The notes under the pieces: generated by a model
Databases searched by the model: none
Told to the model about the DNA's origin: nothing
What the model saw: the letters and a program-made list of their open reading frames with translations, nothing else
Position numbers and translations under genes: made by a program
Origin: a virus
Lineage: Duplodnaviria > Heunggongvirae > Uroviricota > Caudoviricetes
Length of the DNA: 24,654 nucleotides
Direction: 5' to 3' (one strand)
Virus record (IMG/VR): IMGVR_UViG_3300045988_113752
Span: 1-24,654 of that record
Shown here: positions 1 to 17,362 of the stretch, in pieces
Position numbering within the stretch: position 1 is the first letter of the stretch
Layout of the letters: each line of letters opens with the position of its first letter

Positions 1-2
1 TG

Positions 3-332
3 GTTGATGCTTATCCGAAGATTCTGGCAGGTGTTCAGCAGCGCCAGGCAGAAGCCTGGCAGAAAACAACCGAGCAGTGGGCTGCGGATGTAAAAGCTGA
101 CAAAGAAATCGGTGGCGACAAGTTGATTTCTAACCTTAGCGCCGCACAGCGTGCGCTTGACCAGTTCGGGACACCTGAACTCAAAGAATATCTGAACACC
201 ACCGGGCTGGGTAATCACCCTGATCTGGTCAAAACGTTCGTGAAAATCGGAAAGGCGATGTCTGAAGATGGCATGGTCACCGGTGGTAATGAAGGCCAGC
301 GTAGTGCGGCCGAAGTGCTCTATGGCAAATAA
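3..332 (+). CDS. Scaffolding-like protein, C-terminal fragment (gene continues upstream of the window)
   Basis: Frame is open from position 3 to the TAA at 330-332, so the listed 123..332 ORF is the tail of a longer gene. It sits directly upstream of the capsid gene and is charged and Ala/Gln/Lys-rich. It ends in SAAEVLYGK, a motif shared with the ORF at 2219..2542. Confidence 0.45.
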   Translation, partial: VDAYPKILAGVQQRQAEAWQKTTEQWAADVKADKEIGGDKLISNLSAAQRALDQFGTPELKEYLNTTGLGNHPDLVKTFVKIGKAMSEDGMVTGGNEGQRSAAEVLYGK

Positions 333-340
333 GAGAGGAA

Positions 341-1333
341 ATGACAATGGCTGTTAAAGGCTTAACTGCGCTAACGCTGGCTGACTGGGGTAAGCGCGTC
401 GATCCAAACGGGAAAGTCGATAAGATTATCGAGCTTCTCGGTCAAACTAACCCGATCCTTCAGGATATGCCTTTTGTCGAAGGGAACCTTCCTACCGGAC
501 ACCGAACCACCATTCGTTCTGGTTTACCTTCAGCTACCTGGCGTTTGCTGAACTATGGCGTACAGCCAAGCAAATCAACCACAGTGCAGGTAACCGATTC
601 CGTTGGCATGCTGGAAACCTATGCTGAAGTCGATAAGTCACTGGCTGATCTGAACGGCAATACCGCTGAATTCCGCCTGTCTGAAGACCGCGCATTTATT
701 GAAGCGATGAATCAGCAGATGGCGCAGACGCTGTTTTATGGTGATTCCAGCGTTAACCCTCAGCAGTTTATGGGACTGTCCTCCCGCTATTCCAGCCTGT
801 CTGCGGGTAATGCTCAGAACATCATTGATGCTGGTGGCACGGGTACAGATAACACCTCAATCTGGTTAGTGGTGTGGGGCGAAAACACCGTGCATGGCAT
901 CTTCCCGAAAGGGCAGAAGGCTGGCATCCAGATGGAAGATAAAGGCCAGGTGACACTGGAAGATGCGAATGGCGGCAAGTACGAAGGCTACCGTACCCAT
1001 TACAAATGGGACAACGGACTTGCTCTGCGTGACTGGCGTTATGTTGTTCGCATTGCAAACATCGATGTCAGCAATCTTTCAGAACCTTCCTCTGCCGCAA
1101 ATATTGCGAAGTTGATGGTTAAAGCACTGCATCGCATTCCAAATCGTGGCATGGGTCGCCCGGTGTTCTACATGAACCGCACTGTAGGCCAGGCTCTTGA
1201 TCTGCAATCTCTGGAGAAAACATCTCTGGCGATCAGCGTAAAAGAGACAGAAGGCGAGTGGTGGACTTCATTCCGTGGTGTACCAATCCGTGAAACTGAT
1301 GCGCTTCTGGAAACAGAAGCCCGCGTGGTGTAA
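341..1333 (+). CDS. Major capsid protein (putative)
   Basis: 330-aa ORF with RBS agagagga 2-9 nt upstream of ATG 341. It follows the scaffold-like gene and precedes a hairpin. Size and position fit a major capsid protein; the fold assignment is inferred, not verified. Confidence 0.65.
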   Translation: MTMAVKGLTALTLADWGKRVDPNGKVDKIIELLGQTNPILQDMPFVEGNLPTGHRTTIRSGLPSATWRLLNYGVQPSKSTTVQVTDSVGMLETYAEVDKSLADLNGNTAEFRLSEDRAFIEAMNQQMAQTLFYGDSSVNPQQFMGLSSRYSSLSAGNAQNIIDAGGTGTDNTSIWLVVWGENTVHGIFPKGQKAGIQMEDKGQVTLEDANGGKYEGYRTHYKWDNGLALRDWRYVVRIANIDVSNLSEPSSAANIAKLMVKALHRIPNRGMGRPVFYMNRTVGQALDLQSLEKTSLAISVKETEGEWWTSFRGVPIRETDALLETEARVV

Positions 1334-1349
1334 CGCCTGTTATTAACCT

Positions 1350-1369
1350 GTGGGTCGTAACAGACCCAC
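1350..1369 (+). promoter_or_regulatory. Stem-loop after the capsid gene (GTGGGTC-gtaaca-GACCCAC), no U-tract
   Basis: Perfect 7-bp stem with 6-nt loop, 17 nt after the capsid stop. Not followed by a T-run, so more likely an RNA stability or processing element than an intrinsic terminator. Confidence 0.35.
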
Positions 1370-1384
1370 TAATGGAGAAAGAAG

Positions 1385-1822
1385 ATGATCACCGACAAAC
1401 TGTTGATGTTCTCCGAAGCTCAGGCGGTTACGAATACCGCGGCTTCTACTGACGTAATCGATCTCGGTCCAATTGACGGAAAACGTCGTGATATCGGCGT
1501 GGGTTACCCGCTTGAGTTTTGGGCGCTGGTTAACACAGCCGCCGCGGCAAGCGGTGATGCAACTGTAAACATCCAGTTGCAGACGAGTGAGAATAACAGC
1601 TCATGGACCACTATTTATGATAGTGGCGCACTGGCAAAGACCGCCCTGACAGCAGGTAAACGAGTTGTTTCTGCAAAGGTGCCTGCCGGTGTTCAGCGAT
1701 ATCTGCGTGTTAACTACTCCGTCGCAACTGGCCCACTAACGGCTGGCGAATTCACTGCTGGTATCAGTCTTGATGTTGATGCCAATACGCCGTATCCGAT
1801 CCGCTCAAAAGTAACTGGTTAA
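1385..1822 (+). CDS. Hypothetical virion protein (possible capsid decoration/head protein)
   Basis: 145-aa ORF with RBS ggagaaag upstream of the ATG. Location immediately after the capsid gene. Function inferred from position only. Confidence 0.5.
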   Translation: MITDKLLMFSEAQAVTNTAASTDVIDLGPIDGKRRDIGVGYPLEFWALVNTAAAASGDATVNIQLQTSENNSSWTTIYDSGALAKTALTAGKRVVSAKVPAGVQRYLRVNYSVATGPLTAGEFTAGISLDVDANTPYPIRSKVTG

Positions 1823-1832
1823 GGTGATATCG

Positions 1833-2168
1833 ATGTCAGGTGAGAAACCAAGATACCGCGTTCTGCGCCTCTCTCATATCCATAACACTCTGTGGCCGGA
1901 GGGGGCAGAAATCGAATACGAAGGTGAGCCCGGTAGCGCACTGGAACCTGTTAACGATGCAGCCAGACAGGCAAAAGCAAAAATTGCAGGAAAGGTGTCA
2001 ATGGCAGCAACCAGCACCAAAATCATCAACGATGTGTCAGATGATGGTGAACTGGATAAGCTCCGTGAAGAGTACGAATTGCTCTTTAACGAGAAGCCAC
2101 ACCATAACGCCAAAGCCGAAACGCTCCGCGAGAAGATCGCAGATAAGCGTAAAGAACTGGGCGTGTAA
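1833..2168 (+). CDS. Hypothetical protein (head module)
   Basis: The track ORF starts at GTG 1824; the first ATG is at 1833, with aaggtga upstream. Charged, Lys/Glu-rich 111-aa product. Followed by a terminator. Confidence 0.5.
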   Translation: MSGEKPRYRVLRLSHIHNTLWPEGAEIEYEGEPGSALEPVNDAARQAKAKIAGKVSMAATSTKIINDVSDDGELDKLREEYELLFNEKPHHNAKAETLREKIADKRKELGV

Positions 2169-2184
2169 GCCTCGCGGATCAGAC

Positions 2185-2206
2185 AAGGGGCTTCGGCCCC
2201 TTTATT
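2185..2206 (+). terminator. Rho-independent terminator (aaGGGGC-ttcg-GCCCCtt then TTTATT)
   Basis: GC-rich 5-7 bp stem with TTCG tetraloop followed by a T-rich run, downstream of the head genes. Confidence 0.55.
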
Positions 2207-2218
2207 GCAGGAGTGTAT

Positions 2219-2542
2219 ATGGAACTCGTAAACCTCAAAACCGGCACTGACAGCTACCAGGATGAGAGCGGAGAAACCAGAACTCGCGATGAATACCCGT
2301 GGGGGCTGTGCATCACTCTTAATAACGACACATTGAATAAGCTGAAGGCGCAACCTCAGGGCGTCGGAACAGAAGTGATGATAACTGCAAAGGCTGTTAT
2401 TCGAGGCCTGTCTGCCAGAGAAACTGACGATGGTGTTAATCGCAGCGCCGATCTGCAGATCACTGATATGGCGATCGCTCCTGTTTCCGGGGATGTAGAA
2501 AAATCAGCGGCTGAAACCCTGTACGGCAATGGGGGTGAGTAA
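2219..2542 (+). CDS. Hypothetical protein with scaffold-like C-terminal motif (SAAETLYG)
   Basis: The track ORF starts at GTG 2213; ATG at 2219 has gcaggag upstream. Its C-terminus (EKSAAETLYGNGGE) resembles the scaffold C-terminus (QRSAAEVLYGK) at protein level but not at DNA level. Confidence 0.5.
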   Translation: MELVNLKTGTDSYQDESGETRTRDEYPWGLCITLNNDTLNKLKAQPQGVGTEVMITAKAVIRGLSARETDDGVNRSADLQITDMAIAPVSGDVEKSAAETLYGNGGE

Positions 2543-3147
2543 TGGCCTCTGTAGTAGAGATCTGCAATCGTGCGCTGTCCAATATTGGCAATAGCCGCAG
2601 CATTAACAGCCTGACGGAAGCCAGCAAGGAAGCGGGGGAATGTTCGCTGCACTTTGAGGCCTGCCGTGATGCTGTGCTTTCTGATTTTGACTGGAACTTT
2701 GCTACCAAACGCGTGGCGCTTGCAGATACGAACAATCCACCGCCTGACTGGGAATATGCGTACCAGTACCCGTCCGATTGTCTGCGCATTACTGAAATTA
2801 TGCTTCCTGGTGTACGCAATCCAACAGCAGCAATGCGCGTTCAGTACGAAGTTGGTGCAGACACCAACGGAACAGGAAAGTTGATCTACACAGACCAGCC
2901 GCAGGCATGGCTCAAGTATGTATCTCGCGTTACAGATGTGAACATGTTTGATGCCATTTTTATGGAGGCGTTGGCCTGGCGTCTTGCGGCAGCTATTAAC
3001 ATGGCGCTGACTGGGAATGCAGACCTCGGTACGTTTGCCCTCAATATGTACAATCGCGTGATTCTTAGTGCTGGCTCGCATAGCCAGAATGAATCACAGG
3101 AACCACTGCCACCGGTTGACGAGTTTACCATTGCGAGGTTGTCCTGA
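2542..3147 (+). CDS. Tail tubular protein A-like (gp11-like adaptor), putative
   Basis: 201 aa; start overlaps the previous stop (TAATG). Immediately precedes a large gp12-like gene. Size and position match T7-type tail tubular protein A. Confidence 0.45.
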   Translation: MASVVEICNRALSNIGNSRSINSLTEASKEAGECSLHFEACRDAVLSDFDWNFATKRVALADTNNPPPDWEYAYQYPSDCLRITEIMLPGVRNPTAAMRVQYEVGADTNGTGKLIYTDQPQAWLKYVSRVTDVNMFDAIFMEALAWRLAAAINMALTGNADLGTFALNMYNRVILSAGSHSQNESQEPLPPVDEFTIARLS

Positions 3148-5618
3148 TGGCTATCAGTTGGATCCAGCCCAGCTTTGCCGGTGGTGAGATTGGACCGTCG
3201 TTGTACGGTCGTATCGACATGGCGAAGTACCAGGTGGCATTGCGCAAGTGCGATAACTTTATCGTGCGGCAGTATGGCGGCGTTGAGAATCGACCTGGTA
3301 CGCGTTTTGTCGGTGCCGCCAAATACCCAAATCGGAAATGCCGCCTGATCCCGTTCCAGTTCTCGACGGTTCAGACTTATGCTCTGGAGTTCGGACACCA
3401 GTACATGCGCGTTATCAAAGATGGTGCGTTGGTGCTGAACAGCAGCAATGTTATTTATGAAATTGCCACGCCATATACTGAAGCCGATCTGTTCCGAATT
3501 AAATTCACGCAAAGCGCCGACGTGCTTACGCTGGTTCACCCGGCATACCCGCCGAAAGAGTTGCGTCGCTATGCGCATGACAACTGGCAACTGGTTGATG
3601 TGGTAACGAAGAACGGGCCATTTGAAGATATCAATATTGACGAGTCAGTGACGGTTTATGCCAGCGCCAGCACCGGGACAATTACGTTAACGGCAAGCGC
3701 CTCTATTTTTGGCGCGGAGCAGGTAGGCAAATTGTTCTATCTGGAACAGCCAGCAGTGGATTCAGTGCCGGTATGGGAAACCAGTAAGAGTACGTCGATT
3801 GGCGATATTCGCCGTGCAGACAGTAACTACTATCGCGCCGTTACAGCAGGCAAAACTGGTACTTTGCGCCCTTCGCATACAGAAGGCACATCATGGGATG
3901 GCTGGGGCGGATCCGGTGATGATGATACTGGCATTGAGTGGGAGTATCTGCACAGTGGGTTTGGCATTGCCCGTATCACTGCTGTAAACGGCACTACTGC
4001 AACTGCCGAGGTGATTTCCTATATCCCTTCGCAGGTCGTTGGCGAGGATAATGCCAGCTATAAATGGGCTAAATATGCCTGGAACAGTGTTAATGGTTAT
4101 CCTGGCACTGTTGTTTATTATCAACAACGTCTTTACTTCGCCGCATCGACTGCGTTTCCTCAGACTATCTGGGCCAGCCGTACCGGGGATTATAAGGATT
4201 TTGGCAAAAGCAATCCTACGCAGGATAACGACAGAATTATCTACACCTATGCCGGGCGTCAGGTTAATGAGATCCGCCACCTGATTGATGTCGGTTCGCT
4301 GGTGGCACTGACTTCCGGAGGTGAGTACGTCATCACCGGCGACCAGAACAAAGTGTTAACCCCATCATCATTTGCATTCAGCTCTCAGGGATCAAATGGC
4401 TCGAGCAATGTCCCACCAATTGCCGTGGCGAATATTGCTCTGTTCGTCCAGGAGAAAGGCAGTGTTGTCCGTGATCTGGCCTACTCATTCGATGTTGACG
4501 GCTATCAGGGGAACGACCTGACCATCCTTGCCAATCATCTTTTTCAGAAGCACAGCATTGTTGACTGGTGCTTCTCTATTGTCCCTTACTCCAGCGCCTT
4601 CTGCATTCGTGATGACGGTAAATTACTGGTGATGACCTATTTGCGTGATCAGCAGGTTTTTGCATGGGCACCACAATCCAGTACCGGAAAATATGAAAGC
4701 ACATGCAGTATCAGCGAAGGAAATGAAGATGCGGTGTATTTCGTCGTTAACCGAACCGTTAACGGGCAAACAGTGAGATACATCGAGCGACTGTCCAGCC
4801 GTTTATTTACCAGCGATGAAGATGCTTTCTTTGTTGATTCTGGCCTTAGCTATGATGGAAGAAATACGTCTGACAGAACGATGACCATCACTGGTGGTTC
4901 TGGCGAATGGGATTATCGCGCGGAATATACAATCAGTGTTTCTGGTGGTGCGTACTTCACCAGTAGTGATGTCGGCGCGCAACTACAGTTCCCTTATGTC
5001 GGAACTGATCCTGATACTGGCGATGAAGTGTCAAAAGAATTACGTTGCGACATTATTTCTGTAACCAGCAATACCGCTGTAGTGGTTCGCGCTAACAGGA
5101 ACGTCCCGCCATCCCTCAGGAATGTGGCCACCACGAACTGGCAGATGGCGCGCCGGACATTTGGAGGCCTGTCTCATCTTGAAGGCCAGACCGTAAACAT
5201 TCTCTCTGATGCGAACGTGGAGCCACAGAAAGTGGTTTCCGGAGGTGCCGTCACGCTGGAATCACCGGGAGCTGTTGTGCACATCGGCCTGCCAATAACT
5301 GCTGAATTCGAAACACTGGATATCAACATTAACGGACAGGAAACGCTGCTGGACAAAAAACAGGTGATCCCGTCCGTTACTCTGGTTGTGAATGCCAGTC
5401 GCGGCATCTGGGCGACTACGCCCGGCGGTAAATGGTACGAATATCCACAGCGTGAATTCGAGTTCTACGATGATCCTGTTGATGATGCTACCGGAAAAGT
5501 AGAAGTGAAACTGGACAGTAACTGGGGCAAAAACGGACGTGTAAAAATCCGTCAGCTTGATCCGTTGCCGCTGTCTGTTCTTGCCGTTATTCCTCGCCTT
5601 ACTGTTGGGGGATTCTGA
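3147..5618 (+). CDS. Tail tubular protein B-like (gp12-like nozzle), putative
   Basis: 823 aa; start overlaps the previous stop (TGATG). The N-terminal pattern (GGEIGPSLYGRID...RKCDNF...RPGTRF) resembles the T7 gp12 family as I recall it. Size matches. Confidence 0.55.
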   Translation: MAISWIQPSFAGGEIGPSLYGRIDMAKYQVALRKCDNFIVRQYGGVENRPGTRFVGAAKYPNRKCRLIPFQFSTVQTYALEFGHQYMRVIKDGALVLNSSNVIYEIATPYTEADLFRIKFTQSADVLTLVHPAYPPKELRRYAHDNWQLVDVVTKNGPFEDINIDESVTVYASASTGTITLTASASIFGAEQVGKLFYLEQPAVDSVPVWETSKSTSIGDIRRADSNYYRAVTAGKTGTLRPSHTEGTSWDGWGGSGDDDTGIEWEYLHSGFGIARITAVNGTTATAEVISYIPSQVVGEDNASYKWAKYAWNSVNGYPGTVVYYQQRLYFAASTAFPQTIWASRTGDYKDFGKSNPTQDNDRIIYTYAGRQVNEIRHLIDVGSLVALTSGGEYVITGDQNKVLTPSSFAFSSQGSNGSSNVPPIAVANIALFVQEKGSVVRDLAYSFDVDGYQGNDLTILANHLFQKHSIVDWCFSIVPYSSAFCIRDDGKLLVMTYLRDQQVFAWAPQSSTGKYESTCSISEGNEDAVYFVVNRTVNGQTVRYIERLSSRLFTSDEDAFFVDSGLSYDGRNTSDRTMTITGGSGEWDYRAEYTISVSGGAYFTSSDVGAQLQFPYVGTDPDTGDEVSKELRCDIISVTSNTAVVVRANRNVPPSLRNVATTNWQMARRTFGGLSHLEGQTVNILSDANVEPQKVVSGGAVTLESPGAVVHIGLPITAEFETLDININGQETLLDKKQVIPSVTLVVNASRGIWATTPGGKWYEYPQREFEFYDDPVDDATGKVEVKLDSNWGKNGRVKIRQLDPLPLSVLAVIPRLTVGGF

Positions 5619-12369: not shown

Positions 12370-12933
12370 TTAGCATGATTCAGGGGAAACCCCAATATTA
12401 AATATGAGTGTCTCCCCTGAATCAGCATAATAATGTAATATTATTGACTTACGTTGTTTTCTTGCTTCGTAGAATAAACGCTCTTGCGGCGATAATTTGT
12501 GAAAACTGCCGGATGCACAATATATGTTTTTTAACTTTTCGCGGGTTTCTTTTATTGTATCTTCTGATATGTATTTTAGGTATTTATCCGTATAGATGTT
12601 GCTACTATAAGAAATTAATGTTTTGCTGTTGTTGTGATGTATTGTATTTTTATCGTTGAAGTCTGTATTTTTATTTACTGTCATTAGGTTTTTAATGATT
12701 ACATGTAATACAATAGTCTCCCCATCATCAATTCCATATTTGATGTCATAGTCAGTATATTTATTTGTTATACCGCTTCCTGATAGCGGCACTATGTACT
12801 CTGAGAAAAATGAGTTTGCCGCGTGACTATCAAGAGCAATAGCAGTTTGTTTGTGGTAAAAATAAAACAATATTGAGAGAGTCAAAATAATAGCGACGCC
12901 TAATGCAACCTTTAATATAGATATGGTTTTCAA
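12370..12933 (-). CDS. AT-rich accessory gene: signal-anchored or secreted protein of unknown function (candidate superinfection-exclusion-type moron)
   Basis: The track ORF (12370..12981) starts at TTG with no RBS. An internal TTG at 12933 has a perfect AAGGAG 7 nt upstream and gives N-terminus MKTISILKVALGVAIILTLSILFYFY, a signal peptide or anchor. The region is strongly AT-rich compared with its flanks. Confidence 0.45.
   Translation of the reverse strand: MKTISILKVALGVAIILTLSILFYFYHKQTAIALDSHAANSFFSEYIVPLSGSGITNKYTDYDIKYGIDDGETIVLHVIIKNLMTVNKNTDFNDKNTIHHNNSKTLISYSSNIYTDKYLKYISEDTIKETREKLKNIYCASGSFHKLSPQERLFYEARKQRKSIILHYYADSGETLIFNIGVSPESC
12377..12423. other. 11-bp inverted repeat (gattcagggga ... 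tcccctgaatc) with 25-nt loop, at the junction of convergent genes
   Basis: Perfect inverted repeat read directly from the sequence. It overlaps the 3' end of the minus-strand ORF. Confidence 0.3.
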
Positions 12934-13023
12934 AATATCGCTCCTTGTTGTAACATACATCAGTAATGTGGCGTTTTTCAATTGTATTAAAGACGTGTAA
13001 TATGTACACGCCTTTTGCTCTTC

Positions 13024-13455
13024 CTATTCAGGTATTTCAATTCCAAAACCATCTGCATCCCATGAGTTTTCACAGATGATGTAACCTAGTTCATTGAGCT
13101 TATTAAATGTTTTTTCAAAGATGATCTGGTAATCATTATCTGCAAGTGATTCCAGTTCAAGGTCATTAAGGTTTATATAAAAACTTGTATGTCCAAGTGT
13201 TATTTTCTTATTAATTTCATTAAAGGTTCTTTTGAAAATAATATTTGATATTTCATGTCGTGCATTGTTTGCAATGATTTTTGCTTCATAAGCAGAAATT
13301 ACGTCATCTTCATGAATATCTTTCAGAAAACTGGTGTCAAGACGTTGTACTATTTCAGCGTTCATTGATCGCTTATTGGCTTTTGCAGAAATTTCTATTT
13401 TTTCTTTTACTTCGACGGGAAGTCTGATCCTTAGTTGTGGATCTTCTCTGCTCAT
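13024..13455 (-). CDS. Mnt-like ribbon-helix-helix repressor with ~100-aa C-terminal extension
   Basis: N-terminus MSREDPQLRIRLPVEVKEKIEISAKANKRSMNAEIVQRL resembles P22 Mnt/Arc RHH domains as I recall them. Transcribed divergently from the Arc-like gene. Start chosen at the ATG giving MSRED; the track ORF starts 10 codons upstream. Confidence 0.55.
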   Translation of the reverse strand: MSREDPQLRIRLPVEVKEKIEISAKANKRSMNAEIVQRLDTSFLKDIHEDDVISAYEAKIIANNARHEISNIIFKRTFNEINKKITLGHTSFYINLNDLELESLADNDYQIIFEKTFNKLNELGYIICENSWDADGFGIEIPE

Positions 13456-13575
13456 GTTCTTCACCAAATATTGAGTTACTTGCAATGATTGAAGTATGCC
13501 TCACCGTGTGCTTGACATCAATGACGCACGGTGTGACAATTATTTTGCCCCACGGTGGGGCTAAGGAGATATGAA
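13456..13575. promoter_or_regulatory. Divergent promoter/operator region between the Mnt-like and Arc-like genes
   Basis: TTGACA at 13512-13517 with a weak -10 (gacaat) 17 nt downstream on the plus strand. Inverted half-sites CACCGTG (13502-13508) and CACGGTG (13527-13533) flank the -35; a third CACGGTG lies at 13551-13557. Confidence 0.45.
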
Positions 13576-13743
13576 ATGCAAAAAGCAAAAGAGATGTGTC
13601 AACGACGAGTTCGTTTTCCGGACGATGTGAAGTTAGCTATTGAAAGAAATGGCGAAAAAGAATGCCGAAAGTTCAATACAGAGATTATCTATCAGCTGAG
13701 GAAAGTGTATGGACTCACTGGTGAGAAGAATAGCGTGGCATAA
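13576..13743 (+). CDS. Arc-like ribbon-helix-helix repressor
   Basis: 55 aa from ATG 13576, with taaggag 8 nt upstream. RVRFPDDVKLAIERNGEKECRKFNTEIIYQLRKVY resembles P22 Arc. Directly upstream of the antirepressor gene. Confidence 0.6.
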   Translation: MQKAKEMCQRRVRFPDDVKLAIERNGEKECRKFNTEIIYQLRKVYGLTGEKNSVA

Positions 13744-13814
13744 AACAGCGAAGCCCCACGGTGGCCAGACCGTCAGGGCTTCAGTATCGTAAAACTACGT
13801 ATAGGAATTAACGA
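13742..13814 (-). ncRNA. Candidate sar-like antisense RNA covering the antirepressor RBS/start
   Basis: Minus-strand promoter TTGATA-N17-TATACT (plus coordinates 13849-13844 and 13826-13821) fires antisense across the ant RBS (13802-13805) and ATG (13816). A strong hairpin (13750-13782) is followed on the minus strand by GCUGUUUUA. Predicted length is ~70 nt. Confidence 0.4.
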
Positions 13815-13815
13815 C

Positions 13816-14754
13816 ATGACGAGTATAGCAACAGCAGTATCTACTATCAACGTGCCATTCCACGGCGCAGAGCTTTATGTTGTCAATCACAACGGCGAAC
13901 CGTATACCCCAATGAAACCTATCGTTGAGGGAATGGGGCTAGACTGGAAATCTCAACATAAGAAGATTTCTCAACGCTTCTCGAAGGGTATGGTGGAAAT
14001 CACCATACCTTCTGCCGGTGGGGTGCAAGCCATGATTTGTATGGCTTTACGAAAATTGGCAGCTTGGTTGAACAGCATCAGCCCTAACAAAGTCCGCCCT
14101 GAAATCCGCGACAAGGTAATCCAGTATCAGGAAGAGTGTGACGATGTGCTCTACGAGTACTGGACTAAAGGCCATGTGGTTAACCCACGCAAAGCTAAAA
14201 AGGCGTTGCCGGGTAAAATAACAACTGAACAGCAGGAAGCCATTAAACAACTCGTCATGAGTCGCGGTCAGTCTCTGCCAAAAGAAAAACAGGCTAAGGC
14301 GATGATCACCATGTGGTCGTCACTGAAATCTCATTTTGGCTGTTCGTACAAAGAAATTGGTGAAGATCAATTTGCCGAAGCGTTGTCTCTTGTTGCTCGG
14401 GTTCCGCTTGAAGGGGAGTATCTCCCTGCTGGATCTGCATCAGAGAATGATGAAGTGGCAGTCAAGATGTTAGATGCGCTTCGTGAGGCAATTAAAACAC
14501 AGACAAAATGTTATGGTTATCCACTGAAGCCCGGCTACCGTAGCCTGATTCATTCGCCGTCTGGTGTTCTCGGCCTGACGGAGAACTCACTGCTGATGAA
14601 TCTGCTGAACCAGTTACAGGAAGACGGGCACGATGTATCGGGCGCGGCGGCGGAGCTGACCACCATGTTCTGCTACATCGTCGGTGTGAGCAAATGCCTG
14701 CGTGATATCCAGACGCACGCGGAATACATCAACGACAAGGCAGGGTTCTTCTGA
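13816..14754 (+). CDS. Antirepressor-like protein (Ant-type N-terminal region plus shared C-terminal domain)
   Basis: 312 aa immediately downstream of the Arc-like gene, in the immI-like arrangement. The C-terminal ~78 aa are identical to the C-terminus of the Bro-N protein at 16006..16698. Confidence 0.55.
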   Translation: MTSIATAVSTINVPFHGAELYVVNHNGEPYTPMKPIVEGMGLDWKSQHKKISQRFSKGMVEITIPSAGGVQAMICMALRKLAAWLNSISPNKVRPEIRDKVIQYQEECDDVLYEYWTKGHVVNPRKAKKALPGKITTEQQEAIKQLVMSRGQSLPKEKQAKAMITMWSSLKSHFGCSYKEIGEDQFAEALSLVARVPLEGEYLPAGSASENDEVAVKMLDALREAIKTQTKCYGYPLKPGYRSLIHSPSGVLGLTENSLLMNLLNQLQEDGHDVSGAAAELTTMFCYIVGVSKCLRDIQTHAEYINDKAGFF

Positions 14755-14774
14755 CAGAACGGCGGCACAGGGAC
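14521..14774. repeat. Inverted repeat, left copy (~253 bp, ~97% identical to 15988..16240 in reverse complement)
   Basis: Aligned by hand: about 6 substitutions, all synonymous in the coding part, plus a small indel just after the stop codon. It encodes the shared antirepressor C-terminal domain. Confidence 0.8.
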
Positions 14775-14804
14775 GTGCAAAACGAAACTAGCGTGACATG
14801 TCAC

Positions 14805-14829
14805 AGGCCGCTTTCGCGGCCTTGTTTTT
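14805..14829. terminator. Bidirectional intrinsic terminator (AGGCCGC-tttc-GCGGCCT then TGTTTTT)
   Basis: 7-bp GC-rich stem, TTTC loop and T-run on the plus strand after the ant stop. It sits between convergent genes and is preceded by the perfect palindrome GTGACATGTCAC (14793-14804). Confidence 0.5.
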
Positions 14830-14989
14830 AACGAATGCCACCGCCGCCAGGGCGGGAATCCGCAGAACGCCCACCGCAGCGGGAGCCGTCAGCGGCAGTA
14901 TCGCTGTCGTGCTGACAACGACCGGCAAAGGCCTGAGTTGAAGCTACCAGAGACAACAAAACGAACAGTGCAGCAAATGCTTTTTTCAT
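14828..14989 (-). CDS. Small secreted Cys-containing peptide (hypothetical)
   Basis: Internal ATG at 14989 gives MKKAFAALFVLLSLVASTQAFA, a classic signal peptide, followed by a ~31-aa Gly/Arg/Asp-rich mature part with 2 Cys. The track ORF extends to 15061. Confidence 0.4.
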   Translation of the reverse strand: MKKAFAALFVLLSLVASTQAFAGRCQHDSDTAADGSRCGGRSADSRPGGGGIR

Positions 14990-15082
14990 TGTGAAATTTC
15001 CATCTATAAGCCACCTCAATGTGGCGTCAATGAGTGTAGCACTGACTTTTGTTTCGTCCACAAAAAAGCCCGCAGCGCGGGC

Positions 15083-15631
15083 TTACTTTTCTTCAGGTTT
15101 GTTGTCTTCAGATTTCTTCTTGATGCTTGGTTTTTGTCTAAGAACGAAAATACCAGCCACTGCAACAACTGTACCGATCACTGTGCCAGCTAGAACTTCA
15201 TGACCTGTTAAACCTAATAATGTTGCACAAGCTACTGTAAAAATAGTTGCACTCAGGCCAAACCACTGCCCACGTTTATCTCTATTAATAGCCCCGTCAA
15301 GTGCCTTTTCCTCCATTTTCTGGCGGTGAGCAAACTCCTTCTCCGTCAGCTGGAAGATGCGTTCGGGGGCATCAGGTAAAATATCCTGATACCCGCGAAG
15401 CAGATAGGGGGGAGGAAGCGGACCCTGAAACGCATGGTGAGCGACAACTATCTCCTGAATTTCAGGGCGATCAAGAACTCTTGTGAAGGCATCTGGGTGT
15501 TGAATGATCTCGTTACTTAGCCCTTCCTCAACTTCCTCGAACTCAGTTTCTTCGTTATCACTTGGTTGCCCAATAGATTTTTGCATATTTGTCGAAGGAC
15601 ATTCCTTTAGCTTCTGGTTTTCCTCTTGCAT
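15083..15631 (-). CDS. Membrane protein with acidic N-terminus and two C-terminal TM helices (DUF2335-like by memory)
   Basis: 182-aa ORF with aggga upstream. Contains a PPPYLLRGYQDILPDAPERIF motif and two hydrophobic helices near the C-terminus. Its 5' end overlaps the upstream gene by 74 nt in another frame. Confidence 0.45.
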   Translation of the reverse strand: MQEENQKLKECPSTNMQKSIGQPSDNEETEFEEVEEGLSNEIIQHPDAFTRVLDRPEIQEIVVAHHAFQGPLPPPYLLRGYQDILPDAPERIFQLTEKEFAHRQKMEEKALDGAINRDKRGQWFGLSATIFTVACATLLGLTGHEVLAGTVIGTVVAVAGIFVLRQKPSIKKKSEDNKPEEK

Positions 15632-15884
15632 TTGAGTTTTTCCCTGTCACTATTGCCCATTTTCCGCCAGCAGGCGCTGCAATTTTTTTTCCGTTCTTTA
15701 CTATATATTCAGCATAAACACGATTTTCTGACCGTCTGAGATCGTCTCCGACCATATTCATGTCTCTTGATATAACTTTGACGACAGAGTCTCGGTTTAA
15801 AGCCTTGGCATAGTTGGAGCCAGGAACGATACCCAAAGGGGTGCCAGACTCTATAGCCAGCTCCTTGACATATCTTCTGCTCAT
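15558..15884 (-). CDS. Hypothetical protein (108 aa), basic
   Basis: The track ORF starts at TTG 15899; ATG at 15884 is preceded by GAGG at 5-nt spacing. No recognisable family. Confidence 0.4.
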   Translation of the reverse strand: MSRRYVKELAIESGTPLGIVPGSNYAKALNRDSVVKVISRDMNMVGDDLRRSENRVYAEYIVKNGKKIAAPAGGKWAIVTGKNSNARGKPEAKGMSFDKYAKIYWATK

Positions 15885-15987
15885 ATGAACCTCAACCAAT
15901 CGACTTTACCAATCGGGTAATTTTAAACATGAGTATAATGCTTTTAACTGCAACGAGTGTAAACAATTATTGATAATTGTAGGCACA

Positions 15988-16240
15988 TCCCTGTGCCGCC
16001 GCCCGTCAGAAGAACCCTGCTTTGTCGTTGATGTACTCCGCGTGCGTCTGGATATCACGCAGGCATTTGCTCACACCGACGATGTAGCAGAACATGGTGG
16101 TCAACTCCGCCGCCGCGCCCGATACGTCGTGCCCGTCTTCCTGTAACTGGTTTAGCAGATTCATCAGCAGTGAGTTCTCCGTCAGGCCGAGAACACCAGA
16201 CGGCGAATGAATCAGGCTGCGGTAGCCGGGCTTCAGTGGG
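15988..16240. repeat. Inverted repeat, right copy (partner of 14521..14774)
   Basis: Reverse complement matches the left copy at ~97%. It encodes the C-terminal 78 aa of the Bro-N antirepressor. Confidence 0.8.
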
Positions 16241-16698
16241 GCGCTGTAGGTTTTGTTCTCTACCTTCATTGCCTGCATCACTGCTGATGCTGTGGCGTTG
16301 GCTACCTGGTCGGCAACCATCTTTATGCGTTCTTCCTGCGGGAGCGAGTTTTTAATGTAACTTCCGGTGCGGCGGATCTGAGGAAGAACCTCACCTGTAA
16401 CCCATTCAAGAAATCTGAATGCTCTCGTTCCCTCAGTCATTGCCTCTTTGCAACGCAGAATAAGGATGTAGAGACCTGATTCTGAAACGATGGATAGTTC
16501 TTGTATTCCACCAGGGGTCTGTATTGAATACAGCCCCTTTTTGTTCCAGCCTTTTTTATCAAGTTTTCTCGCTTGTGTAACATCAATATTCAAAGCATTG
16601 CACACATCTTTGGTGACAAACCAAGGTTCTCCGTCAATCATGAACATACGGATCTGGCAGGATGACTCAAAGGAAAAGATGGAAGGTTTGGTATTCAT
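16006..16698 (-). CDS. Bro-N domain antirepressor with shared C-terminal domain
   Basis: Start chosen at ATG 16698 (AAGGTGA 5 nt upstream), giving MNTKPSIFSFESSCQIRMFMIDGEPWFVTKDVCNALNI, a Bro-N/antirepressor N-terminal signature. The C-terminus is identical to the Ant at 13816..14754. Confidence 0.65.
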   Translation of the reverse strand: MNTKPSIFSFESSCQIRMFMIDGEPWFVTKDVCNALNIDVTQARKLDKKGWNKKGLYSIQTPGGIQELSIVSESGLYILILRCKEAMTEGTRAFRFLEWVTGEVLPQIRRTGSYIKNSLPQEERIKMVADQVANATASAVMQAMKVENKTYSAPLKPGYRSLIHSPSGVLGLTENSLLMNLLNQLQEDGHDVSGAAAELTTMFCYIVGVSKCLRDIQTHAEYINDKAGFF

Positions 16699-17011
16699 AG
16701 CGATCACCTTTGTAGTTAGGTTAATCACCACCGCTGAGACCAATCAGATGGTGGTGAACTGTGCAGAGTTGGTCTTACCGGCTACAAAGGAACCCGGCGC
16801 ACCTTTCGGTGCCCCCACACAGCCCACCATAGAATAGGTGCGCTTTACACATAAAAAAACCGCTTATGCGGCATATGTGCCTCTGTAGTAATCCGGGAGA
16901 CCAATCCCGGCACTGGATTTTGCCAGTGCCCGATTACTATGGCACAAGAGGAGTGCAATGTAAATTTACCGAAAAGGTAAATATAAGCACTCCTATTGGT
17001 AATTTCAAAAC

Positions 17012-17269
17012 TTATCTGGTTTGTTTTCGTAATTGTTCGGCACAATAGTCGAGATGTGTTTGCAGATCCTGCATAGACATCTGTGAGCTGGTGACGTAGT
17101 TAATCAGTGCAGTCAGTTCGGCAAGTGGGCCATCGACATTAAATCCATCCTTATCGAGATCCCGGAGTAATTTCATCAAGTGCGATCCCTCCACCAGTGA
17201 CCTGACGCCTCCCGGCGTGTGAATCCTTTCGGTAAATCCCTCTTCCAGTGGATAGTGATACTGCTGCAT
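17012..17269 (-). CDS. Small protein homologous to the antirepressor C-terminal domain, LexA-box controlled
   Basis: 85 aa from the second ATG (17269), which has GGAG 9 nt upstream; the first ATG (17284) has no RBS. YPLEEGFTERIHTPGGVRSLVEGSHLMKLLRDLDKDGFNVDGPLAELTAL aligns with YPLKPGYRSLIHSPSGVLGLTENSLLMNLLNQLQEDGHDVSGAAAELTTM of both antirepressors. Confidence 0.6.
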   Translation of the reverse strand: MQQYHYPLEEGFTERIHTPGGVRSLVEGSHLMKLLRDLDKDGFNVDGPLAELTALINYVTSSQMSMQDLQTHLDYCAEQLRKQTR

Positions 17270-17289
17270 CTTAATCTTCTCCATGCAAT

Positions 17290-17345: not shown

Positions 17346-17362
17346 ATTACCTGAAAGGTAAT
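17346..17362. promoter_or_regulatory. Perfect palindrome ATTACCT-gaa-AGGTAAT upstream of the tailspike gene
   Basis: 7-bp arms with 3-nt spacer, immediately downstream of TTGCAA (17340-17345), about 105 nt upstream of the tailspike ATG. Confidence 0.3.

What the first reader, a model, noticed from the sequence alone, without database searches (positions are those of the whole stretch)
14775..15987. 1.2-kb cassette flanked by the inverted repeats carries three small uncharacterised genes
Between the two repeat copies, all on the minus strand, lie a secreted Cys-containing peptide (signal peptide MKKAFAALFVLLSLVASTQAFA, ~31-aa mature part), a 182-aa protein with an acidic N-terminus and two C-terminal TM helices, and a basic 108-aa protein. 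The latter two overlap by 74 nt. None is a recognisable structural, lysis or replication gene. Its placement inside the immunity region, between two antirepressor paralogues, is typical of phage accessory (moron, exclusion or defence) loci. The flanking repeats could also drive inversion or deletion of the cassette by homologous recombination.
Basis: partly seen in the sequence, partly recalled or inferred. Interest (0 to 1): 0.65.

Follow-up and report, generated by a model that had tools for sequence, protein, structure and literature searches.

The report
Swappable accessory-gene slot in a prophage
The three small genes lie in a swappable accessory-gene slot of an E. coli prophage; two of them form an unstudied gene pair found in temperate phages of many bacterial groups, a reasonable but untested candidate for phage exclusion or defence.

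Summary
Three minus-strand genes lie between two 270-nt inverted repeats: a 53-aa signal-peptide protein, a 182-aa DUF2335 membrane protein and a basic 108-aa protein. The last two overlap by 74 nt.

The repeats are not cassette ends. They are the near-identical 3' coding ends of two convergent antirepressor genes in an epsilon15/phiV10-like (Uetakevirus) prophage. Only 3 of 68 E. coli genomes with the cassette have both arms, and none has it flipped.

The segment holds two units:
- **Peptide gene.** It is prophage backbone, present in about 10% of complete E. coli genomes.
- **Replaceable operon slot upstream of it.** I found nine alternative cargoes, including YafO-type toxin pairs and DUF4760. 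The slot is bounded by a conserved promoter and a conserved terminator.

The slot's promoter carries a palindrome, TTACC-N5-GGTAA. This palindrome also flanks the prophage repressor gene, so I infer it is the repressor's operator.

The cargo here belongs to a conserved two-gene module: a small partner protein with no Pfam family, translationally coupled to DUF2335. It occurs in temperate phages of several phyla. In 63 of 63 cases the partner lies directly upstream of DUF2335.

Function is untested. My best guess is a partner-gated membrane effector acting in exclusion, abortive infection or toxin-antitoxin style. No known defence model matches.

The parts
13747..13814 (-). sar-type antisense RNA between the Arc-like gene and the left antirepressor gene
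   Evidence: Rfam RF00262, 44.8 bits against a gathering score of 43
13816..14754 (+). Left antirepressor (Ant, P22_AR_N type, 312 aa). Its 3' end is the left repeat arm.
   Evidence: PF10547 5.9e-45 and phrog_524/245
14486..14755 (.). Left arm of the inverted repeat; it codes for the shared antirepressor C-terminal domain (phrog_450)
14805..14822 (+). GC hairpin followed by a T-run: plus-strand terminator after Ant, lying just beyond the 3' end of the peptide gene
14828..14989 (-). 53-aa signal-peptide protein ('transmembrane anchored protein', phrog_14503). The mature part, CxHDxDxAxDGSRCGGRSxDSRPGG, is invariant across genera.
15066..15084 (-). Intrinsic terminator that starts at the DUF2335 stop codon. 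It is the conserved 3' boundary of the cargo slot.
15083..15631 (-). 182-aa DUF2335 protein: acidic N-terminus, conserved cytoplasmic GPLPPP...HR..ME motif, two C-terminal TM helices, charged tail
   Evidence: PF10097 1.6e-15; alignment A2
15558..15884 (-). 108-aa basic partner protein, member of a family with no Pfam model. It has the motifs ESGxPLGIxPxSNY and DMxxVGxDLRR and a lineage-specific C-terminal extension.
15906..15920 (.). Palindrome TTACC-N5-GGTAA abutting a -10 hexamer: the inferred prophage repressor operator at the cargo promoter
15920..15963 (-). Two overlapping sigma-70-like promoters for the cargo operon (TTTACA-17-CATTAT and TTAAAA-16-TAAAAT)
15982..15997 (-). Hairpin GGCACAgggaTGTGCC just after the antirepressor stop, conserved in front of all nine cargo types
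16005..16274 (.). Right arm of the inverted repeat; it is the 3' coding end of the Bro-N antirepressor gene
16006..16743 (-). Right antirepressor (Bro-N type). The longest ORF is 245 aa; RefSeq aa, starting at about 16698.
   Evidence: PF02498 2.2e-13. The 99% identical ORF4 of phage vB_EcoP_ZX5 acted as an anti-repressor on overexpression (PMC9782041).
16747..16834 (-). C4 antisense RNA in the leader of the Bro-N operon
   Evidence: Rfam RF01695, 78.6 bits
16853..16929 (-). isrK-type sRNA in the leader of the Bro-N operon
   Evidence: Rfam RF01394, 74.7 bits
16966..16980 (.). Second exact TTACC-N5-GGTAA palindrome, abutting the -10 of the isrK/C4/Bro-N promoter (17008-16980)
17012..17284 (-). 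90-aa stand-alone copy of the antirepressor C-terminal domain (phrog_450)
17347..17361 (.). Third exact TTACC-N5-GGTAA palindrome, upstream of the 90-aa gene

Best explanation
The window is an epsilon15/phiV10-like (Uetakevirus) prophage of E. coli. Two antirepressor modules point at each other. The left one is P22-type: Mnt-like, Arc-like, sar RNA, Ant. The right one is P1/Gifsy-type: isrK, C4 RNA, Bro-N antirepressor. Their shared C-terminal domain creates the inverted repeat.

The segment between them holds two separate units:
1. A backbone gene for a small exported, Cys- and Asp-rich peptide.
2. Upstream of it, a replaceable operon slot, bounded by a conserved promoter-plus-palindrome on one side and a conserved terminator on the other. 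Recombination in these conserved flanks exchanges the cargo.

The cargo here is one member of a widespread two-gene module: a small cytoplasmic partner protein translationally coupled to a DUF2335 protein. DUF2335 has a conserved cytoplasmic domain and is anchored by a two-helix membrane hairpin.

**Inferred mechanism, not shown.** The partner binds and gates DUF2335. When released or triggered, DUF2335 acts on the inner membrane. The outcome would be exclusion of incoming phage, abortive infection, or toxin-antitoxin-like killing.

The promoter carries the palindrome that also flanks the prophage repressor gene. The operon is therefore probably held down by the repressor and switched on together with the Bro-N antirepressor operon, at infection or induction.
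For: **Shown: phage type and regulatory RNAs.** The DNA matches Uetakevirus phages. Rfam finds sar, C4 and isrK at gathering score.

**Shown: the repeat is coding sequence.** The last 78 aa of the two antirepressors are identical.

**Shown: a variable slot.**
- Nine cargo types occur among 80 viral contigs. The DUF2335 pair accounts for 3, YafO-type pairs for 29, DUF4760 for 11.
- All types share the 5' hairpin, promoter and palindrome. Eight of nine share the 3' terminator that starts at the cargo stop codon.
- The peptide gene region occurs in 532 of 5426 E. coli genomes, the whole cassette in 68.

**Shown: the module moves on its own.**
- Same pair, same overlap, in a Klebsiella prophage but in a different slot.
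- In an Enterobacter island next to an Avs8/PD-Lambda-4A gene.
- In a Leclercia island.
- At the end of an unrelated myovirus-type E. coli prophage.
- DNA homology to the Enterobacter copy covers only 15063-15981, that is, promoter to terminator.

**Shown: the operon is conserved far beyond Enterobacterales.**
- DUF2335 occurs in phages of Klebsiella, Leptospira, Streptococcus, Ralstonia, Arthrobacter, Lacticaseibacillus and Porphyromonas.
- Where I inspected the context (Leptospira, Streptococcus, Arthrobacter, a Methylococcaceae genome), a small gene overlaps the start of DUF2335.
- Of 119 viral loci found with a GPLPPP pattern, 108 encode DUF2335.
- An iterative search from the 108-aa protein found 67 partner ORFs, one per locus. 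All 63 that lie in a locus with DUF2335 are directly upstream on the same strand.

**Shown: the palindrome is non-random.** The window has 3 exact sites, all abutting promoters (expected 0.44 matches at up to one mismatch). Two full prophages have 14 and 15 sites against 0.8 expected, including both sides of the HTH repressor gene.

**Supporting literature.** The same Bro-N protein acted as an anti-repressor and ORF21 as the repressor on overexpression in phage ZX5, which carries this cassette (PMC9782041).
Against: - No functional evidence exists for any of the three proteins.
- PADLOC, NCBIfam and the PDB give nothing for them.
- Both AlphaFold models are poor, pLDDT 60 and 51. The partner-DUF2335 interaction and any membrane damage are therefore pure inference.
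- The partner has no recognisable DNA-binding domain, unlike classical type II antitoxins.
- A repressor-controlled promoter fits poorly with a defence that must be ready in the lysogen.
- A ZX5 lysogen carrying the cassette showed no change in growth, stress response, biofilm, antibiotic sensitivity or virulence. Phage challenge was not done.
- The palindrome is also kept where the module sits in islands that may lack the repressor. It could instead be an RNA hairpin or the site of another protein.
Confidence: 0.55

Rival explanations
1. Toxin-antitoxin-type addiction module. DUF2335 is a membrane toxin and the small upstream protein its labile antitoxin. The pair stabilises the prophage or island rather than defending against phages.
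For: - Two small overlapping genes with the small one first.
- The same slot most often holds YafO-family toxin pairs with the same layout.
- The module occurs on islands, prophage ends and some plasmids.
- The partner evolves faster than DUF2335, dN/dS 0.15-0.40 against 0.045. That pattern is common for antitoxins (my own knowledge).
Against: - No DNA-binding domain in the partner and no known toxin fold.
- The promoter carries a phage-wide palindrome rather than a pair-specific autoregulatory site.
- Only 7 plasmid records match, out of 72,556.
Confidence: 0.2
2. Lytic-cycle helper. The operon is repressed in the lysogen and expressed early after infection or induction together with the antirepressor. 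There it would aid the phage itself: exclusion of secondary phages during lytic growth, lysis timing (holin/antiholin-like), host takeover or counter-defence.
For: - The inferred repressor operator abuts the -10 of the cargo promoter, in the same register as at the antirepressor operon and many other operon starts.
- No strong terminator separates the Bro-N gene from the cargo operon.
- DUF2335 has a two-helix hairpin and a charged tail, as holins do. Two of 12 members give weak Holin-X hits, best E-value 2e-5, below the cut-off.
Against: - In other phages the pair sits in typical lysogeny or moron positions: after the lysin at the prophage end in Streptococcus, between integrases near the repressor in Arthrobacter.
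- The window has its own lysis ORFs at about 20.3-22.1 kb, annotated as holins, endolysin and a DUF2514 protein in the near-identical prophage.
- The module persists in non-phage islands.
Confidence: 0.2
3. Invertible or phase-variable cassette. The 270-nt inverted repeats drive flipping of the 1.2-kb segment, which would switch expression of the three genes or swap antirepressor C-termini.
For: - Long, 92-97% identical inverted repeats flank the segment.
- The arms have recombined during evolution. A junction of this Bro-N gene, the arm and the peptide gene, on the opposite side and strand, occurs in 5 genomes at full length and 7 more at 82%.
- One such locus also carries an inverted Ant remnant.
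Against: - 0 of 5426 complete genomes carry the flipped junction of this cassette, against 3 with the window's arrangement.
- No invertase gene lies nearby in the window.
- The arms are ordinary coding sequence.
- Most copies of the cassette have only one arm.
Confidence: 0.03
4. Lysogenic-conversion factor. The exported peptide, with or without the membrane pair, changes the cell envelope or host interaction rather than acting on phages.
For: - The mature peptide is nearly invariant across Enterobacterales genera while its signal peptide varies, with dN/dS of 0.05.
- It is kept in about 10% of E. coli genomes.
- It follows a terminator and has no palindrome in front of it.
Against: - The ZX5 lysogen showed no change in adhesion, invasion, serum sensitivity, virulence, biofilm or stress response.
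- No canonical -10 hexamer precedes the gene.
- It has no similarity to any known factor.
Confidence: 0.1

Closest known systems
Accessory-gene hotspots of temperate phages and satellites (P22 immI/sieA region; P2 and P4 defence hotspots, Rousset et al. 2022; cited from my own knowledge)
   Same: Conserved flanking genes with many alternative small cargoes between them, often one- or two-gene systems, exchanged by recombination in the flanks. The position, next to antirepressor genes and before the tail spike, is the one used by P22.
   Different: The cargo lies between a conserved promoter bearing the inferred repressor operator and a conserved terminator that begins at the cargo stop codon. 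None of the nine cargoes matches a PADLOC model.
Lambda RexA/RexB and mycobacteriophage Butters or Sbash gp30/gp31 (my own knowledge)
   Same: Prophage-borne pair of a small cytoplasmic protein and a membrane protein, encoded in or next to the immunity region.
   Different: No sequence similarity was detected. DUF2335 has two TM helices and a ~120-aa cytoplasmic domain, not a four-helix channel. DUF2335 queries found no mycobacteriophage records. No defence phenotype is known here.
SpoIISA/SpoIISB membrane toxin-antitoxin of Bacillus (my own knowledge)
   Same: A membrane-anchored protein with a cytoplasmic domain, neutralised by a small cytoplasmic partner encoded in the same operon.
   Different: Gene order is reversed and there is no homology. 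Toxicity of DUF2335 is untested.
YafO-family toxin pairs
   Same: They occupy the same slot in sister prophages with the same layout, small gene first and overlapping.
   Different: YafO is a soluble ribosome-dependent RNase (my own knowledge). DUF2335 is a membrane protein with no YafO similarity.
Pfam DUF2335 (PF10097)
   Same: The 182-aa protein is a clear member (57 bits against a cut-off of 25).
   Different: The Pfam model covers only the 50-residue cytoplasmic motif and says nothing about function or the obligate upstream partner. The papers that call DUF2335 a phospholipase almost certainly mean DUF2235, the Tle1 family (my own knowledge).

Membership tests
Pfam DUF2335 (PF10097) | Match to the family HMM above the gathering score | tested here: met
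   57.2 bits against a cut-off of 25, E = 1.6e-15, residues 73-122
Pfam DUF2335 (PF10097) | Predicted membrane protein: hydrophobic helices after the conserved motif | tested here: met
   Helices 88-141 and 145-165 in the model; hydropathy peaks at about 132 and 155; conserved across alignment A2
Partner + DUF2335 two-gene module (defined in this work) | Small ORF directly upstream on the same strand, overlapping or abutting DUF2335, with the PxxNY and D(W/M)xxVGxD(L/M) motifs | tested here: met
   74-nt overlap in the window. 63 of 63 partner hits lie directly upstream of DUF2335. The strict motif is present in 66 of 95 evaluable upstream ORFs.
Type II toxin-antitoxin system | Two small adjacent co-oriented genes in one operon | tested here: met
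Type II toxin-antitoxin system | Antitoxin with a DNA-binding domain that autoregulates the operon | tested here: not met
   No Pfam or NCBIfam domain in the 108-aa protein or its relatives. The promoter palindrome is phage-wide, not pair-specific.
Type II toxin-antitoxin system | Toxin kills or arrests growth and the antitoxin neutralises it | not testable with these tools
   Needs expression experiments
Known anti-phage defence systems (PADLOC-DB 2.0) | Match to a defence-protein HMM | tested here: not met
   No hit for the peptide or the 108-aa protein. The only hit for DUF2335 is a chance-level one (E = 0.039) to a methyltransferase model.
Known anti-phage defence systems (PADLOC-DB 2.0) | Neighbourhood of known defence genes | tested here: inconclusive
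   One lineage (Enterobacter, L010-L012) has the module directly 3' of PD-Lambda-4_A/Avs8A. No other instance was found.
Moron (Hendrix/Juhala sense; definition from my own knowledge) | Present or absent between otherwise similar phages, with its own promoter and terminator | tested here: met
Moron (Hendrix/Juhala sense; definition from my own knowledge) | Expressed from the repressed prophage, independently of phage regulation | tested here: inconclusive
   The promoter carries the palindrome that also flanks the repressor gene. No expression data are available.
Invertible DNA segment (Gin/Cin/Hin type; definition from my own knowledge) | Flanking inverted repeats | tested here: met
Invertible DNA segment (Gin/Cin/Hin type; definition from my own knowledge) | Adjacent invertase gene, and both orientations seen in the population | tested here: not met
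   No recombinase ORF near the segment. 0 of 5426 genomes carry the flipped junction.
Holin | Small membrane protein encoded next to the endolysin | tested here: not met
   The lysis genes lie about 5 kb away, at 20.3-22.1 kb. Holin-X hits are below the cut-off in 2 of 12 members.
Sec-exported peptide | n-h-c signal peptide with small residues at -3 and -1 | tested here: inconclusive
   MKK / AFAALFVLLSLVA / STQAFA|G by inspection. The signal region varies while the mature part is invariant. No signal-peptide predictor was available, and NCBI names it membrane-anchored.

The most novel reading that the evidence does not exclude
The partner + DUF2335 pair is a new, widespread two-component system of temperate phages and islands. 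A small cytoplasmic protein would control a two-helix membrane effector to exclude or abort infecting phages. In Uetakevirus prophages it would sit in an expression slot wired to the prophage repressor, so that loss of repression arms it together with the antirepressor.
Probability: 0.3. Interest if true: 0.7.

Novelty: new member of a known kind. Interest (0 to 1): 0.48.

Why it matters
As a locus this is ordinary: prophages keep swappable accessory genes near their immunity and tail-spike genes.

Three things go beyond routine annotation:
- **DUF2335 has an obligate partner.** DUF2335 is a domain of unknown function with no literature of its own. It turns out always to come with a small upstream partner from an undescribed family, in temperate phages of several phyla. 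That gives a defined two-gene unit to test for defence, exclusion or toxin-antitoxin activity.
- **The slot offers more candidates.** It holds at least nine cargoes, none in current defence catalogues, all framed by the same promoter and terminator. This is a compact source of further candidates.
- **The cargo promoter shares the palindrome that flanks the repressor gene.** These cargoes may act when repression is lifted rather than in the quiet lysogen, which would affect how such 'morons' are screened.

Tried and rejected
- **Structure route.** AlphaFold2 models of DUF2335 (pLDDT 60) and the 108-aa protein (pLDDT 51) were too poor. I did not run fold searches, because matches to such models would be meaningless.
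- **PDB profile searches.** Only chance-level hits.
- **PADLOC and NCBIfam.** Nothing for the three proteins or for the other cargoes.
- **Giant repetitive proteins in the exhaustive search**. Rejected as spurious. They match only a short beta-rich stretch, many times over, and belong to Ig or cadherin-like families or give only scattered fragmentary Pfam matches.
- **Genome-collection scan with the DUF2335 alignment.** Only 2 loci. I replaced both with a degenerate GPLPPP DNA pattern.
- **Literature on 'DUF2335 phospholipase'**. Rejected as a confusion with DUF2235.
- **Literature on DUF4760, phiV10 and Uetakevirus**. Nothing on this slot apart from the ZX5 paper. The epsilon15 genome paper could not be retrieved.
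- **Inversion of the cassette.** Searched for and not found.
- **Link to Avs8B.** The window proteins hit no PADLOC model, so they are not PD-Lambda-4_B, assuming PADLOC carries a model for it. I could not obtain the Avs8B sequence, and the Enterobacter Avs8A DNA found no E. coli match.
Full report
**1. The observation.**
The repeat finder reports one long inverted repeat, arms 14486-14755 and 16005-16274, 270 nt at 92% complementarity, 1249 nt apart. Sixteen of its 22 mismatches lie in the first 35 positions, so the inner ~236 nt are about 97% identical.

Three minus-strand ORFs lie between the arms:
- 14828-14989: 53 aa, MKKAFAALFVLLSLVASTQAFA followed by GRCQHDSDTAADGSRCGGRSADSRPGGGGIR.
- 15083-15631: 182 aa.
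- 15558-15884: 108 aa, pI 10.0.

The last two overlap by 74 nt. RefSeq annotates exactly these three CDS in a 99.8% identical prophage. Pairwise dN/dS is about 0.05 for the peptide, 0.045 for the 182-aa protein and 0.15-0.40 for the 108-aa protein. All three are real genes.

**2. Where we are.**
The DNA matches Escherichia phages EC.W1-9, vB_EcoP_ZX5, TL-2011b and phiV10 (genus Uetakevirus, epsilon15-like). A near-identical prophage is integrated next to guaA in E. coli.

Left of the segment are an Arc-domain Mnt-like gene, a small Arc-like gene, a sar-type antisense RNA (13747-13814) and an Ant gene of P22_AR_N type.

Right of it, on the other strand, are an isrK-type sRNA, a C4 antisense RNA and a Bro-N antirepressor gene. 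The 99% identical Bro-N protein of phage ZX5 behaved as an anti-repressor on overexpression, and ORF21 as the repressor (PMC9782041).

So two antirepressor modules of different regulatory types converge on the segment.

**3. What the inverted repeats are.**
The arms end at the stop codons of the two antirepressor genes and encode the same C-terminal domain (phrog_450); the last 78 residues are identical. A third, diverged copy of the domain is the stand-alone 90-aa ORF at 17012-17284.

The repeats do not define the cassette:
- Phage EC.W1-9 has the same three genes with only the right arm.
- Of 68 complete E. coli genomes with the whole segment, 3 also have the left junction of the window.
- Of 80 viral contigs with the peptide gene, 79 have the upstream arm but only 17 have the second arm. 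None of the 3 with this cargo has it.

I built the junction that a flip would create and searched 5426 complete E. coli genomes. None contains it; the best coverage, 73%, is the normal arrangement.

The arms have nevertheless recombined over evolutionary time. This Bro-N gene, its arm and the peptide gene occur joined on the opposite side and strand in 5 genomes at full length and in 7 more at 82%. One such locus carries an inverted Ant remnant. Inverted repeats cannot delete the segment by a simple crossover.

**4. The segment holds two units in a cargo slot.**
An intrinsic terminator (15084-15066) starts at the stop codon of the 182-aa gene and separates it from the peptide gene.

In 532 of 5426 E. 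coli genomes some part of the segment is present. In most it is only the peptide gene region, and what lies upstream differs. Examples are a YafO-family toxin pair (TL-2011b), a DUF4760 protein and other one- to three-gene sets.

I cut out the sequence between the antirepressor stop and the peptide start in the 79 viral contigs that have the upstream arm, added the window's own slot, and clustered the 80 sequences. They fall into nine cargo types:

| Cargo | Loci |
|---|---|
| YafO-type pairs (two types) | 29 |
| DUF4760 | 11 |
| Five further types, no Pfam family found | 36 |
| DUF2335 pair | 3 (plus the window) |

All types share the first part of the slot: a hairpin, GGCACAgggaTGTGCC, then a promoter and a palindrome, ATTACC-N5-GGTAAT, that abuts the -10. 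Eight of nine share the terminator GCCCGCGCTGCGGGCTTTTTT, which begins at the cargo stop codon. None of the cargoes matches a PADLOC model. This is a recombination hotspot with conserved flanks.

**5. The palindrome.**
TTACC-N5-GGTAA occurs three times exactly in the window. The expected number of matches, allowing one mismatch, is 0.44. The sites are:
- 15906-15920, in front of the cargo operon.
- 16966-16980, in front of the isrK/C4/Bro-N operon.
- 17347-17361, upstream of the 90-aa gene.

The first two abut a predicted -10 hexamer.

In the full TL-2011b genome there are 14 sites, and in the MSB1_8B prophage, which carries this cassette, 15. The expectation is 0.8 in each. They lie on both sides of the HTH repressor gene, in the pattern of left and right operators, and near the starts of most operons.

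I infer that this is the operator of the prophage repressor, and that the cargo operon belongs to its regulon. That is inference. An RNA hairpin or another binding protein is not excluded. The palindrome is also kept where the module sits in Enterobacter and Leclercia islands.

**6. The cargo proteins.**
- **182-aa protein.** It is Pfam DUF2335 (57 bits against 25). Alignment of relatives shows an invariant cytoplasmic motif, GPLPxP...Y...H, with R..ME nearly invariant. This is followed by RGQ and two hydrophobic helices, then a charged tail.
- **108-aa protein.** It has no Pfam, NCBIfam or PADLOC match. Only a handful of close relatives exist among 5.8 billion clustered proteins. The exhaustive search added a few small relatives sharing ESGxPLGIxPxSNY, DMRxVGxD and FxKYAxLYWxTK. 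Its hits to giant repetitive proteins look spurious.
- **Structure.** AlphaFold models were poor, pLDDT 60 and 51, and PDB profile searches were empty. Structure gave no lead.

**7. The pair is a conserved, mobile operon.**
The same two genes, with the same roughly 77-nt overlap, occur in several other places:
- A Klebsiella Uetakevirus-like prophage, in a different slot, upstream of Bro-N.
- An Enterobacter island.
- A Leclercia island, behind an 82-aa ORF that resembles AlpA by eye (not tested).
- With the peptide gene, at the end of an unrelated myovirus-type E. coli prophage next to yfhH.

DNA homology to the Enterobacter copy spans only 15063-15981, that is, promoter to terminator.

Distant DUF2335 genes were found in phages of Leptospira, Streptococcus, Arthrobacter, Ralstonia, Lacticaseibacillus and Porphyromonas. 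In Leptospira, Streptococcus and Arthrobacter phages and in a Methylococcaceae genome, a small gene overlaps the start of DUF2335. Each of these small proteins carries a D-W-x-x-V/T-x-x-D-L/Y motif like DMNMVGDDL of the E. coli protein.

A degenerate DNA pattern for GPLPPP-x2-L-x2-Y pulled 119 viral loci, and 108 of them encode DUF2335. An iterative profile search started from the 108-aa protein against all 8061 ORFs of these loci found 67 hits, one per locus. Every one of the 63 in a locus with DUF2335 lies directly upstream on the same strand. The Leptospira partner scored E = 2e-10 and the Arthrobacter partner E = 7e-7.

The alignment shows a roughly 60-residue core: GSxxD(I/L)xPxxxY, a spacer, then DWxxVGxD(L/M/I)xxA. 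The E. coli protein adds a C-terminal extension of about 50 residues. I found no description of this partner family or of the pairing.

**8. The peptide.**
The family, named 'transmembrane anchored protein' by NCBI, occurs in Escherichia, Shigella, Citrobacter, Klebsiella, Cronobacter, Franconibacter, Salmonella, Pectobacterium and Dickeya. The hydrophobic N-terminus varies, while the mature part, CxHDxDxAxDGSRCGGRSxDSRPGG, is invariant. That pattern is expected for an exported functional peptide.

The D/H/C pattern suggests metal binding, but no model matches. No canonical -10 precedes the gene.

**9. How it most likely works.**
Shown:
- The architecture of the slot.
- The two-unit structure of the segment.
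- The conserved operon.
- The non-random palindrome.

Inferred:
- The partner, made in fixed ratio by translational coupling, binds the cytoplasmic domain of DUF2335 and controls it.
- DUF2335 acts at the inner membrane.
- The operon is repressed by the prophage repressor and comes on with the antirepressor.

I put about 0.9 on the comparative description. I put about 0.35 on a gated membrane effector serving exclusion, abortive infection or toxin-antitoxin-like killing.

Rivals are a plain addiction module, a lytic-cycle helper, lysogenic conversion by the peptide, and an invertible cassette, the last nearly excluded. One weak association with defence exists: in Enterobacter the module lies directly 3' of PD-Lambda-4A/Avs8A. 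Avs8A is a STAND NTPase that senses major capsid proteins (bioRxiv 10.64898/2026.01.04.697583 and 10.1101/2025.07.02.662641).

A ZX5 lysogen showed no phenotype in growth, stress, biofilm, adhesion or virulence assays. No phage challenge was done.

**10. Verdict.**
This is an ordinary kind of locus, a prophage accessory hotspot, correctly spotted. The repeats were misread as cassette boundaries. The added value is a defined, widespread and unstudied two-gene module, and a hotspot apparently wired to the repressor. Both can be tested directly.

Noticed in passing
L010-L012 (Enterobacter), 1-3519 and 3646-4565 of L010: The partner + DUF2335 module lies immediately 3' of a 1283-aa PD-Lambda-4_A/Avs8A STAND NTPase gene (PADLOC E = 0, 1574 bits) and is followed by an IS3 element. 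Homology to the window starts 127 nt after the Avs8A stop, so the module may have replaced Avs8B.
   Followed up: partly
window 12370-12981 (-): AT-rich (GC about 0.32) 203-aa ORF with an N-terminal hydrophobic helix, between the last internal-virion/injection-type gene and the Mnt-like gene. This is the position of sieA in P22. It matches phrog_8033 (unknown function) and gives a weak ThsB/TIR-like PADLOC hit (E = 0.006).
   Followed up: no
window 15906-15920, 16966-16980, 17347-17361; L100 and L101 genome-wide: The palindrome TTACC-N5-GGTAA sits near the starts of most operons of these prophages (14-15 sites against 0.8 expected) and on both sides of the HTH repressor gene. This looks like a P1-like dispersed operator network in Uetakevirus phages.
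   Followed up: partly
window 16980-17012; L101 36736-37702; L008 3742-4546: A second variable slot lies between the isrK/C4 promoter and the 90-aa gene. It is empty in the window. In E. coli MSB1_8B it holds a plus-strand YafO-type pair with its own near-palindrome. In a Klebsiella prophage it holds the DUF2335 pair.
   Followed up: partly
window 13024-13485 (-) and 13555-13743 (+): The Mnt-like regulator is a 153-aa protein with an Arc domain plus a roughly 90-aa C-terminal extension (phrog_1388). The Arc-like gene encodes about 55-62 aa. Together with sar they form a P22-type immI module inside an epsilon15-like phage.
   Followed up: no
L013 (E. coli O121 strain 201805972), 3001-3450: A decayed copy of the three-gene segment next to yfhH and a pinE pseudogene. 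An internal deletion removed the segment from within the peptide gene to within the 108-aa gene (window 14973-15695).
   Followed up: no
papers: Three papers on T6SS and T4SS effectors call a lipase domain 'DUF2335'. This is very probably a slip for DUF2235 (Tle1), and it could mislead annotation of true DUF2335 proteins.
   Followed up: partly
L014 (E. coli CE0007a), 1482-5169: A rearranged immI region: an inverted, truncated Ant (P22_AR_N) remnant, then this Bro-N operon on the opposite strand and side, then the peptide gene, another cargo and a third antirepressor type. This shows past inversion or recombination at the shared C-terminal-domain sequence.
   Followed up: partly
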